Shown here in pieces: positions 1,867 through 7,027 of a stretch of DNA of 24,703 nucleotides; position 1 is the stretch's first letter, and each line of letters starts with the position of its first letter. The position numbers and the translations under genes are program-made. The notes under the pieces are model-generated. The model saw nothing but the letters and a program-made list of their open reading frames with translations. It made no database searches and was not told where the DNA came from. This DNA is from a virus: UHGV virus genome UHGV-0099692; one strand, written 5' to 3'.

Positions 1867-2949
1867 TTAGAACTGGTAAACCATACCTACAGCAACGATA
1901 TCATCGGTAGCAACGCCAGATGCTTTCGTGAAATCGCTCTTATCAATCAGGTTGATTTTGTAATCAACAAAAGTGGACATATTTTTGTTGAAGTAATAGG
2001 TTGCACCTACATCAATATATTCAACCAGGTCCTGATCACCCCACGCACCCAAGTCTTTTCCTTTAGATTGCAGGTAAGCAACGGACGGACGCAGACCGAA
2101 GTCGAACTGATATTGTGCAACTACTTCGAAGTTTTGTGCTTTGTTGGCAATATGGTTATTACCAAAAACAGTCATGTTCTGGGTTTCAGAATAGGTGGTA
2201 GCCAGATAGATGTTGTTCGCATCATATTTCAGACCAGCTGCCCATACTTCAGCATTTTGACCAGATGCATTCAGGCTGTTGTTACCGTAGATAACCTGAT
2301 TATTAGTGCGGTCAGATTTAGCATAGGTTGCACCTACACCGAATCCTTCATACTCATAAGTAGTGGAGAAACCGAAACCATCACCATTAGCTTCAGTTAC
2401 GTCAGTGCGGTCATTTTTACCCTGATACTGAGCAGCAAAGTTCAGACCATCAACCAGACCAAAGAAGTCATTGTTACGATAAGTTGCAACACCTGTGGTG
2501 CGACCAGTCATGAATACATCTGTTTGGGTCCAGGTATCGCCACCGAATTCTGGCAGAACGTCGGTCCATGCACCAATATCGTATGCTACACCGTAGTTAC
2601 GGCCATAATCGATGGAGCCGTAGTCACCGAATTTCAGGCCAGCGAAGGCAAGACGGGTTTTATCTTTGGAGGAACCTTGAGATTCAGCGCGGTTGCCTTT
2701 GAATTCATATTCCCACTGACCGAAACCAGTCAGTTGATCGTTGATTTGGGTTTCACCTTTGAAGCCAAGACGGGCATAAGTAGTATCACCATCATCTGCA
2801 TCATTAGAGGAGAAGTAGTGCTTAGCATTAACTTTCCCGTACAGATCCAGCTTGTTACTGTCTTTATTATAAATTTCAGCTGCCTGAGCAGACATCGCCA
2901 TCAGTACTGATGCAGCTACAGCAGAAATTGCCACTGTTAATTTTTTCAT
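1867..2949 (-). CDS. nmpC: Outer-membrane general porin, NmpC/OmpD/OmpC family (360 aa), apparently intact
   Basis: Minus-strand ORF; start taken at [30 protein letters not shown] (Sec signal peptide, ATG complement at 2947-2949); porin motifs ([28 protein letters not shown]) and C-terminal ...VGMVYQF ending in Phe. The ORF-track start at 3009 adds 20 unsupported residues. Confidence 0.93.
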
Positions 2950-3375
2950 CGTGAGCCCTTTTTTTGAACTATTATTAAAAAATGATGTCACTGCGCGATA
3001 AATATTCATCTAATCAATGTGATTATTTCAAGATGTAAGTTTTGGTTTCTCATTTGATTTGTGAAGTAGATCTCTATTTTTATCTGAACTTTTTCTATCG
3101 AATCCTATTCATGGCTCTTGGCTGAATAAAAATAAATCTATTAGCCAATTTATATTAATGGCTGTTATTTATAAGTGCTCTATAATTTGAAGGTTCAATT
3201 TAAACCAGCTAAAAATAACGCTGGAAATTATTTGTTGGTTATTTGTTGAGATTTGCTTATGTATTTGTAGTGGTGTTTTCAATACTCGGTAGCATTCTCG
3301 CAAATATCATTTAGTGGTTTACGTACGTAAAAAATTGGTTATGCTGTTAAGAGTGGTTACTTCGTCACACAGCTT

Positions 3376-3400
3376 AAACCCGCCGTCGAGCGGGTTTTTC
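3376..3400 (+). terminator. Intrinsic terminator-like hairpin upstream of the holin gene (tR'-like candidate)
   Basis: AAACCCGC-cgtcga-GCGGGTTTTT followed by CCATTTTTT; GC stem plus U-tract on the + strand, 137 nt upstream of the holin start; no + strand ORF precedes it. Confidence 0.5.
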
Positions 3401-3536
3401 CATTTTTTGAGTCTCGATATTAGCTGATAACCCAATACCTGAGTTATTCACTGACTCCGAGTCTGTTACGTTTCTGCTTTTTTGCGATACGTTGTATTCC
3501 CTCAATTTACACCCGCTTTGTCTGCGAGGTGGGGTT

Positions 3537-3752
3537 ATGAAATCCATGGATAAGTTAACAACGGGTGTCGCCTATGGCACCTCAGCAGGTAGTGCCGGTT
3601 ACTGGTTTTTACAGCTGCTCGATAAAGTCACGCCCTCACAGTGGGCAGCAATAGGTGTGCTGGGTAGCCTGGTATTTGGCCTGCTGACGTACCTGACAAA
3701 CCTTTATTTCAAGATTAAAGAAGATAAGCGCAAGGCTGCGAGAGGTGAATAA
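3537..3752 (+). CDS. essD: Class II pinholin, phage 21 S-like, dual-start (71/68 aa)
   Basis: [71 protein letters not shown]; Met1-Lys-Ser-Met4 dual-start motif; two TM segments; basic C-terminus. ATG at 3537 with GAGGTGGGG upstream; the ORF-track start at 3492 is an extension. Confidence 0.9.
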
Positions 3753-4249
3753 TGCCTCCATCATTACGAAAAGCCGTTGCTGCTGCTATTGGTGGCGGAG
3801 CAATTGCTATAGCATCAGTGTTAATTACTGGCCCAAGTGGTAACGATGGTCTGGAAGGTGTCAGCTACATACCATACAAAGATATTGTTGGTGTATGGAC
3901 TGTATGTCACGGGCATACAGGAAAAGACATCATTCCCGGTAAAACGTATACCAAAGCAGAATGCAAAGCCCTCCTGAATAAAGACCTTGCCACGGTCGCC
4001 AGACAAATTAACCCGTACATCAAAGTCGATATACCGGAAACAATGCGCGGCGCTCTTTACTCATTCGTTTACAACGTGGGTGCTGGCAATTTCAGAACAT
4101 CGACGCTTCTTCGCAAAATAAACCAGGGCGATATCAAAGGCGCATGTGATCAGCTACGTCGCTGGACATATGCTGGCGGTAAGCAATGGAAAGGTCTCAT
4201 GACTCGTCGTGAGATTGAGCGTGAAATCTGTTTGTGGGGTCAGCAATGA
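3752..4249 (+). CDS. rrrD: SAR endolysin (T4-lysozyme/GH24 fold, phage 21 R-like), 165 aa
   Basis: Start overlaps the holin stop (TAATG); N-terminal Gly/Ala-rich weakly hydrophobic signal-anchor-release segment ([21 protein letters not shown]) followed by a lysozyme catalytic region (GLEGV...[16 protein letters not shown]). Confidence 0.9.
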
Positions 4250-4713
4250 ACAGAGTAACCGCGATTATCTCCGCTCTGGTTATCTGCATCATCGTCTGCC
4301 TGTCATGGGCTGTTAATCATTACCGTGATAACGCCATTACCTACAAAGCCCAGCGCGACAAAAATGCCAGAGAACTGAAGCTGGCGAACGCGGCAATTAC
4401 TGACATGCAGATGCGTCAGCGTGATGTTGCTGCGCTCGATGCAAAATACACGAAGGAGTTAGCTGATGCGAAAGCTGAAAATGATGCTCTTCGTCGCAAG
4501 CTTGATAATGGTGGCAGGGTGCTCGTCAAAGGAAAATGCCCTGTGCCATCCTCAGCCGAAACCTCCAGCGCCTCCGGCATGGGCAATGATGCCACCGTCG
4601 AACTCTCTCCAGTTGCTGGACGAAACGTTCTCGGTATCCGGGACGGAATTATCCGCGACCAAACAGCACTGAGAACGCTTCAGGAATACATCAGGACGCA
4701 ATGCCTTCGATGA
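4246..4713 (+). CDS. rzpD: Rz-like inner-membrane spanin (i-spanin), 155 aa
   Basis: ATG overlaps the endolysin stop (ATGA); N-terminal TM helix ([20 protein letters not shown]) then a charged coiled-coil-like periplasmic domain; directly after the endolysin. Confidence 0.85.
4466..4672 (+). CDS. rzoD: Rz1-like outer-membrane lipoprotein spanin (o-spanin), embedded in the +1 frame of Rz
   Basis: AAGGAG at 4453-4458 then ATG at 4466; [19 protein letters not shown] has a lipobox (VAGC); proline-rich mature region ([16 protein letters not shown]) typical of Rz1; entirely inside Rz in another frame. Confidence 0.8.
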
Positions 4714-4931
4714 TAGCGATAATTTTACTCATCATCCTTCACATCTGGCTCTGTAGACAGGGTGGTGATCACTTCTGGAGTGAATCCAGATTTAACATCT
4801 CATTGCTGATGCTTGATATTGAGCATCTTGCGCGCGGTAAGGGGCTGCGTTGAGATAAGAGCCAGTCATCACAAACACCAGGATTTAGCCTCGCATTCGC
4901 GGGGCTTTTTATTGCAACAAAGGTAAAGACG

Positions 4932-5219
4932 ATGGATGAAGAATATCGTAAAGACCTGCAATTGTGGTTTGGCCTGACGCATGCGTCGTTCTGCGTGATG
5001 CCGAGAGTATTCATGGAGGCTATGCCGCAAGAATGGCAAGAGAAGATGGCGCAGTTGCTTTTTGAGTATGGCGACACGATCAAAACGGATGTCTGCGGAG
5101 TTCACTGCTGTTTCGTTACTGCCAAAGACGGCAACAACCGCTTTATGAGGATGCCAGAAGATATTCTGAACTATCGTCATCCCCGGCGTGAGTTCATCGA
5201 ATCATTTCTGAAGAAGTAG
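4932..5219 (+). CDS. Hypothetical protein (95 aa), function unknown
   Basis: Only substantial + strand ORF in this interval, co-directional with the late operon; four Cys (C21, C55, C59, C60). No family recognised from memory. Confidence 0.5.
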   Translation: MDEEYRKDLQLWFGLTHASFCVMPRVFMEAMPQEWQEKMAQLLFEYGDTIKTDVCGVHCCFVTAKDGNNRFMRMPEDILNYRHPRREFIESFLKK

Positions 5220-5312
5220 CCATTACAAAGTCTATCTGCGGGGGGCTTGATAAAGGTGCTTTCACCTCGCTTAGCATGGTATGTTCTGACTACCAACTTT
5301 TTGGGAGGACAC

Positions 5313-5537
5313 ATGGAACTGATAAATGGACGGCCAGGCAGAGATTTTATAGTGGGAACATATACCTACTCAGAAATTAAAGATCTTAACTTCATGGCTA
5401 AGGAAGAGAAAAGAGCTCGTGAAGAGCTAAAGCATCGGGGTTACGAATTGGCGTATATCAAGGCGGACTCTGAATGTAACGGGATGTTTGTCAGGGCGTA
5501 CCGGGTCTATACTGACAAAGCGCCATCTAATGTCTAA
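5313..5537 (+). CDS. Hypothetical small protein (74 aa), function unknown
   Basis: ATG at 5313 preceded by GGGAGGA (5303-5309); MELINGRPGRDFIVGTYTYSEIKDLNFMAKEEKRAREELKHRGYELAYIK...; the ORF-track start at 5247 lacks an RBS. Confidence 0.5.
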   Translation: MELINGRPGRDFIVGTYTYSEIKDLNFMAKEEKRAREELKHRGYELAYIKADSECNGMFVRAYRVYTDKAPSNV

Positions 5538-5672
5538 ATATACCTCGGGCGGTTTTTTACGTTCATTACCGTACGCAATTACAGCAGGCATTCATTGAGT
5601 GCCTGTGATAATGATTTATCAACGTGCTTGCAAACGGTATTCTAGACCTCCAATTATCCTAAGGAGGTTTTT

Positions 5673-6077
5673 GTGGTTAAAAATTTAGAATACATGAAGG
5701 GGATGCTTGAGGTATTTTTGAAAGCGAAAACTCCCTTTATATCTACAAAAGACTTAGCTAATGCGGGGTACGATATCTGCTCGAATGAAGGGATGTTTCA
5801 TTATCTACTTCTTATTGAGCAAGGTTATATCAGTAATAAAGATCTAATAACGGATGACATAACTAAACTGGGCTACATGCGCCATTGTGGCCATATGCTA
5901 GATATGGGTACCGACGTGCGACTATCTGCGCAGGGACAAGAATTCGCCCAGGCATTAAATGAACCTACGGTTTTTGAGAAATTAAAGTCAATGAGCGATG
6001 CCCCTTTGAGTACAATCAAAGATGTTGGGCTGGAGTTAACGAAGGCCTATTTAAAGAAGAAATTTGGCCTCGAGTAA
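5673..6077 (+). CDS. Hypothetical protein (134 aa) in an AT-rich segment, function unknown
   Basis: GTG start 7 nt after a canonical AAGGAGG (5660-5666); composition markedly more AT-rich than flanking phage genes; no TM segment or signal peptide; no recognised family. Confidence 0.55.
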   Translation: MVKNLEYMKGMLEVFLKAKTPFISTKDLANAGYDICSNEGMFHYLLLIEQGYISNKDLITDDITKLGYMRHCGHMLDMGTDVRLSAQGQEFAQALNEPTVFEKLKSMSDAPLSTIKDVGLELTKAYLKKKFGLE

Positions 6078-6137
6078 AATTTCTACCCTCACGAGTTAAG
6101 TTGTTTTGTGATGGTTATTCGCAATGAATATCTTTAG

Positions 6138-6164
6138 CCACTGGCATTTGCTGGTGGTTTTTTT
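6138..6164 (+). terminator. Possible intrinsic terminator after the AT-rich ORF
   Basis: CCACTGGCA-tt-TGCTGGTGG imperfect hairpin (G-U pairs needed) followed by a 7-T run (6158-6164). Confidence 0.35.
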
Positions 6165-6261
6165 ATGCGCATCCCTCGCGCACCACAAAGGGAGTCTTTC
6201 AGTAGTGATTCTGAATATCAGTGTGATAAACGTATTTGACAATCATTATCATTTTTGGTGG

Positions 6262-6301
6262 GTCCTTTCCGGCGATCCGACAGGTTACGGGGCGGCGACC
6301 T
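6262..6301. other. cos site: cosQ-like region plus cosN; 12-nt cohesive end GGGCGGCGACCT at 6290-6301
   Basis: GGTCCTTTCCGGCGATCCGACAGGTTACG|GGGCGGCGACCTCGCGG matches, from memory, the lambda right-end/left-end junction almost base for base; lies directly upstream of the Nu1 homologue as in lambda. Confidence 0.85.
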
Positions 6302-6336
6302 CGCGGTTTTTCACTATTTATGAAAATTTTTCAGGG

Positions 6337-6455
6337 AAAATCGTGTCGGTACTTCTCGAATATAACTTTTTGTTTTTTTTTAATATTGCATCCGTAAAGG
6401 TCCGACATGAAAGTGTCCGAAAATGCCTTTTTCTGGCGTTTTCATGTCGGGCCTT
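6337..6455. promoter_or_regulatory. cosB-like region with repeated GTCCGACATGAAA-type elements (candidate terminase small-subunit binding sites)
   Basis: Seen directly: GGTCCGACATGAAA (6399-6412) and its inverted partner TTTCATGTCGGGCC (6442-6455), one mismatch; related copies AAAATCGTGTCGGT (6337-6350) and GTGTCCGAAAATG (6413-6425). Located between cosN and Nu1. Confidence 0.4.
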
Positions 6456-6478: not shown

Positions 6479-7027
6479 ATGAAGGTTAATAAAAAGAGGC
6501 TTGCCGAAATTTTCAACGTGGACCCGCGGACGATTGAACGCTGGCAGTCTCAGGGACTCCCTTGCGCCTCCAAAGGTAGTAAGGGCATTGAATCTGTATT
6601 TGATACTGCCATGGTAATTCAGTGGTATGCGCAGAGGGAAACTGATATCGAAAACGAAAAGCTCCGCAAAGAACTGGACGATTTGCGTGCGGCAGCGGAG
6701 TCAGATTTACAACCCGGCACCATTGACTATGAACGCTACCGGCTCACAAAAGCGCAGGCAGATGCGCAGGAACTGAAAAATGCCCGTGAAGACGGAGTAG
6801 TGCTGGAAACTGAACTGTTTACCTTCATTCTGCAACGTGTGGCACAGGAGATTTCGGGGATACTTGTGCGTGTGCCGTTGACATTACAGCGTAAATATCC
6901 GGACATTTCACCATCACACCTTGATGTGGTGAAAACTGAAATCGCGAAAGCCTCCAATGTTTCAGCTAAGGCCGGTGAAAACGTGGGCGGGTGGATCGAT
7001 GATTTCAGACGCGCAGAAGGCAGCTAA
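6479..7027 (+). CDS. nu1: Terminase small subunit (lambda Nu1 homologue), 182 aa
   Basis: [28 protein letters not shown]... N-terminal winged-HTH; strong similarity to remembered lambda Nu1 (e.g. [28 protein letters not shown]); immediately downstream of cos. Confidence 0.93.

What the first reader, a model, noticed from the sequence alone, without database searches (positions are those of the whole stretch)
5540..6261. AT-rich cargo next to cos: 134-aa ORF with consensus RBS and flanking regulatory-looking elements
The 5673-6077 ORF is far more AT-rich than the surrounding phage genes. It has a canonical AAGGAGG RBS, a candidate -35 TTGCAA at 5628-5633 (the -10 is unclear), an upstream inverted repeat CAGGCA-N10-TGCCTG at 5585-5606 that could be an operator or hairpin, and a downstream hairpin plus T7 run at 6138-6164. 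The interval between the lysis cassette and cos is a known insertion hotspot for accessory genes in lambdoid phages (bor in lambda, for example). The product has no TM segment or signal peptide and no family I recognise, so it is a candidate for an undescribed accessory function such as host takeover, anti-defence or defence.
Basis: partly seen in the sequence, partly recalled or inferred. Interest (0 to 1): 0.6.

Follow-up and report, generated by a model that had tools for sequence, protein, structure and literature searches.

The report
Phage cargo gene behind conserved hairpin
The flagged ORF is a real, selected accessory gene (an uncharacterised winged-helix protein of the DUF2513 family) in a prophage's cargo slot, and the inverted repeat in front of it belongs to a large unannotated family of RNA hairpins that mark where temperate phages swap small genes.

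Summary
ORF 5673-6077 (134 aa, GTG start, AAGGAGG RBS) is a real gene: dN/dS is 0.06-0.17 and GC is 40% against 52.7% for the window. It has a conserved intrinsic terminator at 6136-6164.

It is not family-less. It matches PHROG 585 and is a divergent DUF2513 (PF10711) winged-helix protein (hhalign 99.8%). Nobody has characterised this family.

Close homologues sit in the same slot, between lysis and terminase, in at least six phage backbones. More distant ones are integron cassettes or are fused to a TIR effector. The protein is acidic, so a classical repressor role is doubtful and its function stays unknown.

TTTATC-N17-TATTCT (5615-5643) is the better promoter candidate.

It is the core of a ~39-nt hairpin, GCAUUA-CA-[about 10 covarying bp]-GA-UAAUGC. 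A covariance model finds 237 copies in 165 phage loci, including P22, HK97 and phi80.

- Copies always lie on the sense strand.
- They usually start right after the upstream stop codon.
- They form tandem arrays of up to four.
- They sit at mosaic junctions.
- The family is absent from Rfam.

The closest analogue is the PeSL cassette of T4-like phages.

The parts
4887..4916 (+). Intrinsic-terminator-like hairpin with a T-run. It closes the lysis block (holin, lysozyme, Rz/Rz1).
   Evidence: 8-bp stem, 6 GC pairs, TTTTATT tail. Lysis genes identified.
4932..5219 (+). 95-aa ORF that is the truncated remnant of a longer accessory gene.
   Evidence: it matches only positions 139-230 of the 233-position PHROG 3527 profile (E = 2.5e-56). 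No Pfam hit.
5219..5257 (+). Second, decayed member of the hairpin family (GCCATTACAAAG...CTTGATAAAGG). It starts at the last base of the upstream stop codon.
   Evidence: 14.6 bits, E = 0.034. Sequence. The fold is weak, so the assignment is tentative. It resembles the CATTACAAAGCTCATCTGCGGGTGGGCTTGATAATG type seen.
5313..5537 (+). 74-aa accessory ORF (ATG at 5313, preceded by GGAGG).
   Evidence: PHROG 6100, residues 23-96 of the 5247-start ORF match profile positions 1-74 of 74 (E = 2.7e-55). Sequence.
5574..5615 (+). Intercistronic hairpin of the family GCAUUA-CA-[10-bp stem, 3-nt loop]-GA-UAAUGC. This copy has a 1-nt insertion in the lower stem (CAaUUA).
   Evidence: 50.2 bits, E = 1.2e-12. 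(-17.2 kcal/mol, z = -4.6). for the family; homology between cassettes starts here.
5615..5643 (+). Candidate weak sigma-70 promoter: TTTATC (5615-5620), 17-nt spacer, TATTCT (5638-5643).
   Evidence: both hexamers are invariant in 5 homologous cassettes while the 17-nt spacer diverges. This is inference from conservation. It falls below the threshold of the scan because the -35 matches only 3 of 6.
5661..5667 (+). Shine-Dalgarno AAGGAGG, 5 nt upstream of the GTG start.
   Evidence: GGAGG is conserved in all 5 cassettes.
5673..6077 (+). 134-aa DUF2513-family winged-helix protein (PHROG 585; RefSeq WP_000240372.1, 'hypothetical protein').
6136..6164 (+). Intrinsic terminator (10-bp stem, 4-nt loop, seven T). 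It is the 3' boundary of the cassette.
   Evidence: it is conserved in 5 cassettes, and homology to L130 and L133 ends just after the T-run.
6262..6330 (+). Lambda-type cos region (…ACGGGGCGGCGACCTCGCGGTTTTTCACTATTTATGAAAATTTT…), followed by Nu1 at 6479-7027.
   Evidence: Sequence, compared with lambda cosN from my own knowledge. Nu1 matches Pfam PF07471 at E = 2.4e-81.

Best explanation
The region 5574-6164 is a self-contained accessory-gene cassette (a 'moron') in the hyper-variable stretch that many enterobacterial temperate phages keep between the lysis genes and cos/terminase.

Anatomy:
- a 5' hairpin;
- a short leader with a conserved weak promoter-like pair (TTTATC-17-TATTCT) and a strong RBS;
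- a GTG-initiated 134-aa gene;
- a conserved 3' UTR;
- an intrinsic terminator.

The gene would be transcribed late, as part of the Q-antiterminated late operon. It may also be transcribed on its own in the lysogen.

The product is a divergent member of the uncharacterised DUF2513 family. It has an acidic winged-helix domain followed by three C-terminal helices. I infer that it works by binding a macromolecular or small-molecule partner rather than as a classical operator-binding repressor. I think the most likely arena is phage-host or phage-phage conflict, because the same domain occurs in other 'accessory' settings.

The 5' hairpin is not an operator private to this gene. It is one copy of a family of sense-strand RNA hairpins. 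The lower stem is sequence-conserved (GCAUUA/UAAUGC), there is a CA/GA internal loop, and the ~10-bp upper stem covaries. These hairpins sit directly after the stop codon of one small cistron and about 30 nt before the next.

I propose two roles for them:
(a) an intercistronic RNA element (3'-end protection, processing or attenuation);
(b) a short patch of identity at which homologous recombination swaps cassettes between phages. The DUF2513 cassette would have moved between backbones this way.

What is shown: the anatomy, family membership, purifying selection, covariation, strand bias, stop-codon adjacency and position at mosaic junctions.
What is inferred: the RNA-level role, the recombination role, and the protein's activity.
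For: Gene
- PHROG 585, E = 3e-31.
- 218 clusters of homologues in the exhaustive search. 63 of 81 of them hit PF10711.
- Profile-profile comparison gives 99.8% probability over the full length.
- dN/dS 0.06-0.17.

Cassette and slot
- Homologues at 83-96% identity lie in lambda-like, HK97-like and Hendrixvirinae backbones. More distant ones lie in Pectobacterium, Edwardsiella, Cronobacter and Klebsiella prophages. In the phage and prophage contexts examined the gene lies after the lysis genes and/or immediately before terminase.
- Homology between cassettes starts at the hairpin and ends after the terminator.
- GC is 40% against 52.7% for the window.

Accessory character of the family
- Integron cassette with attC-like spacers.
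- DUF2513-TIR fusion.
- Adjacent FRG-domain gene.
- Small plasmids.

Hairpin
- At least 120 IMG/VR contigs carry the exact 28-nt core, and the flanks are unrelated on both sides.
- 237 covariance-model sites in 165 loci. In all 57 multi-copy loci every copy is on the same strand. The commonest spacing is 311 nt.
- 8 of 10 upper-stem pairs show compensatory changes, and 96.8% of cells are paired. No shuffle or slide control comes close.
- In 55 distinct upper stems there are 87 G.U pairs against 9 A.C pairs. The sense strand folds better in 131 of 137 distinct sequences.
- The upstream stop codon ends within 10 nt in 117 of 135 sites, most often at 0 or -1. The downstream start codon is a median 30 nt away.
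- 89 upstream and 114 downstream flank clusters occur in 156 combinations.
- The hairpin type follows the upstream flank: one upstream cluster has 19 downstream partners and 1 hairpin type, while one downstream cluster has 16 upstream partners and 13 types.
- Whole-genome scans of P22 and HK97 hit only the interval between lysis and terminase.
- Between the window and L170, synonymous sites of the ORF are saturated. The hairpin differs by only 4 substitutions, and both core-stem changes are C-to-U changes that keep G.U pairs.
Against: - No transcript data were available, so the RNA-level role, the promoter and the terminator are all sequence inference.
- The loci were collected by exact match to the commonest hairpin. 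Counts are therefore biased towards that type. One apparent asymmetry between the arms proved to be an ascertainment artefact.
- The covariance-model alignments are fitted to the model.
- The right arm carries a -10-like GATAAT (TGtGATAAT in the commonest type), so a DNA-level promoter role is not excluded.
- The window's own copy has an insertion in the lower stem. It lies 37 nt after the upstream stop codon rather than abutting it.
- For the protein, nothing beyond fold and context bears on activity.
- Direct Pfam, NCBIfam, PADLOC and PDB-sequence searches were all negative.
- Acidity argues against DNA binding but does not exclude it.
Confidence: 0.7

Rival explanations
1. The repeat is a DNA promoter-operator. 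The right arm TGtGATAAT is an extended -10, and the palindrome is the operator of a repressor, possibly the winged-helix product itself. The cassette would then be a classical autoregulated moron.
For: - TGTGATAAT lies at 5604-5612.
- The element always points the same way as the downstream gene.
- Downstream start codons cluster 24-31 nt after the element, which is a plausible leader length.
- PeSLs of T4-like phages combine a stem-loop with a -10 box.
Against: - There is no -35 at 16-18 bp in any hairpin type. The conserved outer arms are 22-26 bp apart.
- The TG motif is absent from non-canonical types (…CTTCGATAAT, …CTTGATAAT).
- Natural variants lose key -10 bases but keep pairing (CTGTAAT, GATAAA, and GATGAT compensated on the left arm).
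- The G.U to A.C ratio is about 10:1, which points to a single-stranded sense-strand structure.
- The hairpin type follows the upstream gene, not the downstream one.
- The element precedes at least 58 unrelated ORF clusters, so it cannot be the operator of the DUF2513 protein.
- The protein's helix 2-3 region is net negative.
Confidence: 0.15
2. The DUF2513 protein is an ordinary DNA-binding transcription regulator of the MarR/PadR type. It would reprogram host or prophage genes in the lysogen (lysogenic conversion).
For: - Winged-helix fold, with the best structural matches to MarR, HxlR, PadR and TubR DNA-binding domains.
- Long C-terminal helices that could form a dimer.
- Its own terminator and a candidate promoter would allow expression in the lysogen.
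Against: - The protein has pI 5.9 and the family median is 5.3. 66 of 81 members have pI below 6.
- The presumed recognition-helix region has 1 Lys/Arg against 4 Asp/Glu.
- Structural matches cover only 65-88 residues at 7-20% identity.
- No conserved palindrome specific to DUF2513 loci was found.
- The family also occurs as a fused N-terminal module of a TIR effector. That looks more like a sensor than a regulator.
Confidence: 0.25
3. The hairpins are attC-like recombination sites recognised in folded single-stranded form. The region after the lysis genes would be a cassette array assembled by site-specific rather than homologous recombination.
For: - The base of the hairpin is conserved and the apex varies.
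- The structure is strand-specific.
- Each ORF's stop codon is followed at once by a hairpin.
- Arrays of up to 4 units are all co-oriented.
- The hairpin type travels with the upstream ORF, as an attC does.
- DUF2513 genes are genuine integron cassettes elsewhere.
Against: - No integron integrase or other dedicated recombinase appears in the annotated neighbourhoods.
- The arms do not resemble the attC core sites RYYYAAC/GTTRRRY.
- Most contigs carry a single copy.
- Near-identity of the commonest type across contexts is what homologous exchange would produce.
Confidence: 0.07
4. The protein is a packaging accessory factor. It sits immediately upstream of cos or the small terminase subunit in many lineages and would act with terminase.
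For: The gene lies directly before cos/Nu1, Terminase_2, Terminase_4 or GpA-type terminases in at least 8 contexts.
Against: - The same slot holds dozens of unrelated cargo genes.
- The gene is present in only 49 of 5426 E. coli genomes.
- It partners with at least four non-homologous terminase types.
- It is separated from cos by its own terminator.
- It occurs in integrons and small plasmids that have no packaging genes.
Confidence: 0.05

Closest known systems
Morons of lambdoid phages (e.g. HK97 gp15, lambda bor). This comparison rests on my own knowledge of Juhala et al. 2000.
   Same: - An extra gene inserted between conserved late genes.
- Lower GC than its surroundings.
- Its own intrinsic terminator and a possible promoter of its own.
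- The same slot as bor, between lysis and cos.
   Different: - The 5' border is a member of a repeated, structured hairpin family rather than only a promoter.
- Promoter activity is unproven.
- The gene points in the same direction as the late operon, whereas lambda bor is on the opposite strand.
PeSL (promoter-early stem-loop) cassettes of T4-like phages (PMC2839356, PMC4122927).
   Same: - Short repeated intergenic motifs concentrated in hyper-plastic regions full of small ORFs of unknown function.
- They begin at the upstream stop codon, contain a stem-loop with G-T pairs that may overlap a -10 box, and end at the next gene's RBS.
- They sit at indel and replacement junctions and are proposed to mediate modular shuffling by homologous recombination.
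   Different: - Here the phages are temperate and the region is in the late operon.
- There is no sigma-70 -35/-10 consensus, only a -10-like GATAAT.
- There is no poly-G/poly-C stem and no T-run.
- The lower stem is sequence-conserved across genera and the upper stem covaries.
- Terminator, promoter and mini-circle activities have not been tested.
Integron gene cassettes and attC sites.
   Same: - An ORF followed directly by an imperfect hairpin with a conserved base and a variable apex.
- Strand-specific folding and co-oriented arrays.
- DUF2513 genes are themselves integron cassettes in marine gammaproteobacteria.
   Different: - No IntI integrase.
- Different core sequences.
- The element is much shorter (39 nt against 60-130 nt).
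- Usually 1-2 copies per phage.
Intercistronic RNase III sites of T7 early and late mRNAs, and REP elements (my own knowledge).
   Same: - Repeated hairpins between cistrons of a long polycistronic transcript.
- A lower stem, internal loop and upper stem layout.
- A position just after stop codons.
   Different: - The helix is shorter (about 16 bp plus a 2x2 internal loop).
- No cleavage data exist.
- The lower-stem sequence is far more conserved than RNase III recognition needs.
Pfam DUF2513 (PF10711) and the related YjcQ family (PF09639).
   Same: - Full-length profile-profile match.
- Same length and the same winged-helix plus C-terminal helices architecture.
- Shared conserved positions: Phe-His in helix 3 and Arg-Leu...Gly..Phe after the wing.
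   Different: - The window protein does not reach the Pfam threshold on its own.
- The His of the family's RLTxxGHDF motif is Gln here.
- Neither family has a known function. Only one paper in the library mentions DUF2513, and only in passing.

Membership tests
Pfam DUF2513 (PF10711) | Direct match to the Pfam profile above its gathering score. | tested here: not met
   no PF10711 hit for the window protein even at E <= 0.1.
Pfam DUF2513 (PF10711) | Homology to bona fide members over the full length. | tested here: met
   63 of 81 homologues found with the window clade's profile hit PF10711 (best E = 9e-15); hhalign of the window clade against 22 PF10711-positive proteins gives 99.8% probability, E = 5e-30, 128 aligned columns. 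RefSeq names the 49%-identical plasmid homologues 'DUF2513 domain-containing protein'.
Pfam DUF2513 (PF10711) | A ~135-aa single-domain winged-helix architecture. | tested here: met
PHROG 585 | Profile match over the whole protein. | tested here: met
   E = 3e-31, residues 1-133 against profile positions 1-127 of 128. The family is annotated 'unknown function'.
Moron (accessory cassette in a late operon) | Present in some phages and absent from the same position in related ones. | tested here: met
   found in 49 of 5426 E. coli genomes; in L015 the hairpin is followed directly by a cos-like sequence and a Nu1-like ORF; other contigs carry other cargo in the slot.
Moron (accessory cassette in a late operon) | Its own factor-independent terminator. 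| tested here: met
   Conserved in 5 cassettes.
Moron (accessory cassette in a late operon) | Its own promoter. | tested here: inconclusive
   TTTATC-N17-TATTCT is conserved while its spacer diverges, but the match to consensus is weak (3 of 6 and 4 of 6). The scan found nothing on the + strand. No transcript data.
Moron (accessory cassette in a late operon) | Base composition different from the flanking phage genes. | tested here: met
   40.0% GC against 52.7% for the window and 44-53% for the neighbouring genes.
PeSL-type regulatory cassette | A repeated intergenic motif with a stable stem-loop, concentrated in a hyper-plastic region and starting at the upstream stop codon. | tested here: met
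   Definition taken.
PeSL-type regulatory cassette | A strong sigma-70 -35/-10 promoter consensus inside the motif. | tested here: not met
   Only a -10-like GATAAT is present. No -35 lies at 16-18 bp in any type, and the TG extension occurs only in the commonest type.
PeSL-type regulatory cassette | Lies at the junctions of insertions, deletions and replacements between related phages. | tested here: met
   156 flank combinations from 89 upstream and 114 downstream clusters; homology between cassettes begins at the hairpin.
PeSL-type regulatory cassette | Demonstrated terminator or promoter activity, and mini-circle formation. | not testable with these tools
   Needs reporter assays and PCR on phage DNA.
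Integron attC site | An integron integrase, and the R''/R' core sites (RYYYAAC ... GTTRRRY). | tested here: not met
   No integrase of that kind in the annotated neighbourhoods. The arms read GCATTACAG ... YGATAATGC.
MarR/PadR-type DNA-binding repressor | A basic recognition helix and wing for DNA contact. | tested here: not met
   the helix 2-3 segment has 1 Lys/Arg against 4 Asp/Glu. The protein's pI is 5.9 and the family median is 5.3. This is a proxy, not a binding test.
Any Rfam family (for the hairpin) | A covariance-model match. | tested here: not met
   no Rfam 15 match at 5574-5615 even at E <= 5.
Known anti-phage defence proteins (PADLOC) | A profile match. | tested here: not met
   no hit at E <= 1.

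The most novel reading that the evidence does not exclude
The hairpins may not be passive RNA structures. They could be the recognition sites of a dedicated cassette-exchange or RNA-processing system of temperate enterobacterial phages, a phage counterpart of integron attC sites or of T4 PeSL mini-circle formation. In that case the region after the lysis genes would be an actively assembled 'cargo array'. The DUF2513 gene, which is an integron cassette elsewhere, would be one of its shuttled genes. A second, independent novel reading concerns the protein. The stand-alone acidic DUF2513 protein could be a decoy or sponge version of the sensor module that is fused to TIR effectors, which would make it an anti-defence protein.
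Probability: 0.1. Interest if true: 0.8.

Novelty: new variant of a known kind. Interest (0 to 1): 0.55.

Why it matters
How tailed-phage genomes become mosaics, with exchange points sitting exactly at gene boundaries, is an old open question. One view holds that homologous recombination acts at short conserved 'linker' sequences. The other holds that illegitimate recombination is followed by selection.

The hairpin family offers a concrete, testable candidate for such linkers in temperate enterobacterial phages. It is 39 nt long and nearly identical across E. coli, Klebsiella, Salmonella, Pectobacterium and Citrobacter phages. It sits immediately after stop codons and is flanked by many unrelated combinations of genes. 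Copies are present in the model phages P22, HK97 and phi80, where genetics is easy.

The hairpin also gives a practical marker for finding cargo genes in prophages, where defence, anti-defence and virulence candidates are expected.

The ORF itself adds a phage and prophage context to DUF2513, a widespread family with no known function. That family also travels as integron cassettes and occurs as the N-terminal module of a TIR effector.

Tried and rejected
Searches that gave nothing for the ORF
- Direct Pfam, NCBIfam, PADLOC and PDB-sequence searches.
- Foldseek against PDB and BFVD gave only weak generic winged-helix matches with E > 0.01.
- The AFDB50 library was unavailable.
- The search for related loci with the broad alignment failed because no conserved stretch was found. 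With the close alignment it returned only one relevant genome locus.

Literature searches
- The hairpin sequence, the protein accession and locus tags, DUF2513, YjcQ, and lambdoid boundary sequences returned nothing relevant.
- Only the PeSL papers were useful.

Rejected readings
- LexA, CRP, Fur and IHF sites in or next to the palindrome. I compared these by eye with consensus sequences from memory, and the spacing or orientation did not fit.
- An intrinsic terminator role for the 5' hairpin, because no T-run follows it.
- A mobile element (MITE or IS end), because the element is only 39 nt and has no target-site duplication.
- A conserved regulatory role for the anti-SD pairing ACCTCC (5646-5651) with GGAGGT. 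It is present only in the window and partly in L173, and absent from L130, L133 and L170.

Corrected along the way
- An apparent 'right arm invariant, left arm variable' asymmetry would have favoured the promoter reading. A reciprocal scan showed it was an ascertainment artefact: 84 of 108 against 84 of 110 canonical.
Full report
**Setting.** The window is a lambdoid prophage late region. It carries a P21-type holin (3492-3752), a lysozyme (3752-4249) and Rz/Rz1 (4234-4713). The accessory stretch in question follows, then a lambda-type cos sequence (about 6262-6330), Nu1 (6479-7027, Pfam E = 2.4e-81) and terminase A. The 722 nt of the finding are 100% identical to a prophage of E. coli O104:H4 and a few other strains. 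They occur in only 49 of 5426 complete E. coli genomes, always on the chromosome, and the ORF is annotated 'hypothetical protein' (WP_000240372.1). In the GenBank phage collection only a ~40-nt piece of the region has matches, and that piece is the inverted repeat.

**Checking the observation.** The repeat folds at -17.2 kcal/mol (z = -4.6) and the terminator at -13.9 kcal/mol (z = -2.9). The scan lists the terminator but no + strand promoter near TTGCAA. The ORF is 40.0% GC against 52.7% for the window, though its immediate neighbours are also below average at 44-48%. Five orthologues with 82-96% amino-acid identity give dN/dS of 0.06-0.17, with one pair at 0.34, so the ORF is a gene under purifying selection. 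The GTG start is supported by the SD 5 nt upstream and by alignment of the family from residue 1.

The protein is acidic, with pI 5.9. The family median is 5.3, and 66 of 81 members are below 6. The segment that would hold the recognition helix has 1 Lys/Arg against 4 Asp/Glu. I therefore doubt a MarR-like operator-binding role, although this is a proxy and not a test.

**Where the family lives.** Close homologues at 83-96% identity are found in Klebsiella, Citrobacter and unnamed metagenomic phages. Their packaging modules differ: lambda Nu1/A in the window, HNH plus Terminase_4 in L130 and L170, and Hendrixvirinae terminase in L133. In the phage and prophage contexts examined the gene lies after the lysis genes and/or immediately before terminase. 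More distant homologues at 25-66% identity occupy a similar position in the following:
- a Pectobacterium prophage;
- a metagenomic GpA-terminase phage;
- Edwardsiella and Cronobacter prophages;
- Klebsiella phage ST846-OXA48phi9.2;
- 48-kb phage-plasmids, including Yersinia phage vB_YpM_39.

Outside phages, the family appears in several accessory settings:
- as a cassette in a chromosomal integron of Cognaticolwellia, where ORFs are spaced about 110-130 nt apart with attC-like repeats and TA cassettes lie next door;
- on small and large plasmids, next to RelE/ParE or followed by an FRG-domain gene;
- once fused to a CAP12/Pycsar-type TIR effector domain.

So it is a mobile, stand-alone accessory gene. 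The contexts hint at conflict systems but prove nothing, and PADLOC is negative.

**The cassette.** An alignment of five homologous cassettes shows that similarity begins exactly at the hairpin, and the upstream flanks are unrelated. Similarity runs through a leader, the ORF and a conserved 3' UTR, and ends just after the terminator's T-run in two of the four comparisons. In the leader, TTTATC and (G)GTATTCT are invariant. They are separated by 17 nt between the hexamers TTTATC and TATTCT, and those 17 nt diverge freely. That is the signature of a -35/-10 pair, although a weak one (window 5615-5620 and 5638-5643). An anti-SD (ACCTCC at 5646-5651) pairs with the SD in the window but is not conserved.

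**The inverted repeat is a member of a large hairpin family.** The ~40-nt matches in unrelated phages led me to scan IMG/VR for the 28-nt core. The first ORF downstream falls into 58 clusters in 106 loci. These include HNH endonucleases, lipoprotein-like and membrane proteins, and DUF2513 in three separate lineages. The core is also present in phi80 (after rha), mEp390, Pectobacterium ZF40 and several Klebsiella prophages, and in a further 94 complete E. coli genomes, including Nissle 1917 and phi80-carrying laboratory strains. It is never annotated.

Searching the fetched loci for the outer arms alone uncovered many more copies. They share the same lower stem (CAUUACAG ... YGAUAAUG) but have quite different upper stems that still pair. 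I built a covariance model from 19 of these. It finds 237 sites in 165 loci, with up to four per contig. In all 57 multi-copy loci every copy is on the same strand, and the commonest spacing is 311 nt, about one small gene.

Evidence that the structure is real and strand-specific:
- 7 of 16 pairs in the seed alignment and 8 of 10 upper-stem pairs among 89 distinct hits show compensatory changes. 96-97% of cells are paired. No shuffle reaches these values, and slid controls give 30-48% pairing.
- The lower-stem A-U/U-A pairs hardly vary.
- In 55 distinct upper stems there are 87 G.U pairs against 9 A.C pairs. The sense strand folds better in 131 of 137 distinct sequences. This points to a single-stranded, sense-strand structure, and RNA is the simplest reading.

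Evidence on position and exchange:
- The stop codon of the upstream ORF ends within 10 nt of the hairpin in 117 of 135 sites, most often at 0 or -1. The next start codon is a median 30 nt downstream.
- 89 upstream and 114 downstream flank clusters occur in 156 combinations. One upstream flank is joined to 19 different downstream flanks, and one downstream flank to 16 upstream ones.
- Where one downstream gene has 16 different upstream partners, it has 13 hairpin types. Where one upstream gene has 19 downstream partners, it has 1 type. The hairpin therefore travels with the upstream cistron.
- Whole-genome scans of P22 and HK97 give hits only between the lysis genes and terminase (P22 40309-40349; HK97 38856-38896 and 38661-38700). 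The lysis-to-cos stretch of lambda (44000-48502) has none.
- Rfam 15 has no match, and no paper in the library contains the sequence.

The window itself holds one good copy (5574-5615, 50 bits, with a 1-nt insertion in the lower stem). It also holds a decayed copy (5219-5257, E = 0.034) that abuts the stop codon of a truncated ORF.

**What the hairpin does.** This part is inference. A promoter reading is attractive because the right arm reads TGtGATAAT, but several points count against it:
- No -35 lies at a workable distance.
- The TG is missing from the other hairpin types.
- Natural variants lose key -10 bases yet keep pairing. One example is ATCATCA...TGATGAT, a double compensatory change. 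Another is CTGTAAT, which restores full complementarity.
- The G.U bias and the linkage to the upstream gene point away from a DNA promoter.

An apparent 'right arm more conserved' signal vanished when I ran the reciprocal scan. No T-run follows the hairpin, so it is not an intrinsic terminator.

My best reading has two parts. First, it is an intercistronic RNA hairpin in the late transcript, serving 3'-end protection, processing or attenuation. The lower stem, 2x2 loop and upper stem recall phage RNase III sites. Second, because about 39 nt are nearly identical across phages, it also serves as a patch for homologous exchange of the flanking cassettes. The closest described analogue is the PeSL of T4-like phages. 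PeSLs are repeated intergenic motifs that start at the upstream stop codon and contain a stem-loop with G-T pairs, often overlapping the -10 box. They lie in hyper-plastic regions and mediate modular shuffling (PMC2839356, PMC4122927). The present family fails the PeSL promoter criterion and occurs in temperate phages, so I call it a new variant and not a member. An attC-like, site-specific role is not excluded, but no recombinase and no core-site similarity support it.

**Verdict.** The gene does have a family, DUF2513 / PHROG 585, although that family has no known function. The proposed -35 is not supported. The 'operator or hairpin' turns out to be the most interesting part. It is one copy of a widespread, covarying, unannotated hairpin family that punctuates the cargo region of temperate enterobacterial phages and coincides with their mosaic junctions.

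**Limits.** No expression data were available. The loci were sampled through the commonest hairpin type. The covariance-model alignments are fitted to the model. The protein's activity is untested.

Noticed in passing
window 5219-5257: A second, decayed copy of the hairpin family (GCCATTACAAAGTCTATCTGCGGGGGGCTTGATAAAGG). It starts at the last base of the stop codon of ORF 4932-5219. So the stretch between Rz and cos reads as a chain: terminator, ORF, hairpin, ORF, hairpin, ORF, terminator.
   Followed up: partly
window 4932-5219: This 95-aa ORF matches only the C-terminal 92 positions of the 233-position PHROG 3527 profile. It looks like a 5'-truncated remnant of a longer accessory gene, sitting just after a terminator-like hairpin at 4887-4906.
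   Followed up: partly
window 5646-5651 with 5663-5668: ACCTCC can pair with the GGAGGT of the Shine-Dalgarno sequence (an anti-SD hairpin). It is present in the window and partly in the Citrobacter copy, but absent from three other homologous cassettes, so it is probably lineage-specific.
   Followed up: yes
window 6397-6455: A 27-nt inverted repeat, 81% complementary with a 5-nt gap (AAGGTCCGACATGAAAGTGTCCGAAAA / TTTTCTGGCGTTTTCATGTCGGGCCTT), between cos and the Nu1 start. It may be the terminase-binding (cosB-type) repeats.
   Followed up: no
P22 NC_002371 40309-40349; HK97 NC_002167 38856-38896 and 38661-38700; phi80 NC_021190 44298-44337: Model phages carry unannotated copies of the hairpin family, in each case between the lysis genes and the terminase or cos region. 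In whole-genome scans of P22 and HK97 these were the only hits.
   Followed up: partly
L058 3001-4024 (- strand); L076 5837-6861 (+ strand): Tandem arrays of four hairpins of different upper-stem types, spaced about 311-340 nt apart. Each pair encloses one small ORF, so the layout looks like a cassette array.
   Followed up: partly
L179 2120-6822 (Cognaticolwellia beringensis chromosome): Here a DUF2513 homologue is one cassette of a chromosomal integron-like array. The ORFs are co-oriented, the ~110-130-nt spacers end in ...GCCTGTTAATTAGGCGTTAT, and ParE/ParD and HigB/HTH toxin-antitoxin cassettes lie next door.
   Followed up: partly
P0108 (278 aa); L172 3992-5157 (Vibrio tasmaniensis plasmid p2): P0108 is a DUF2513 domain fused to a CAP12/Pycsar-type TIR effector domain. 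On the Vibrio plasmid a DUF2513 gene overlaps the start of an FRG-domain gene. In both cases the domain may be a sensor or adaptor in defence-like systems.
   Followed up: no
GenBank OM284015.1 (Elizabethkingia phage EKP1) 35844-35883: A phage recorded as infecting Elizabethkingia (Bacteroidota) carries a 40-of-40 match to the enterobacterial hairpin. The host assignment or the assembly may be wrong.
   Followed up: no
window 1867-3009 (- strand): A 380-aa OmpC/NmpC-like porin gene lies on the opposite strand just upstream of the holin, in a very AT-rich stretch (28-34% GC at 3000-3450). It is another cargo gene of this prophage.
   Followed up: no
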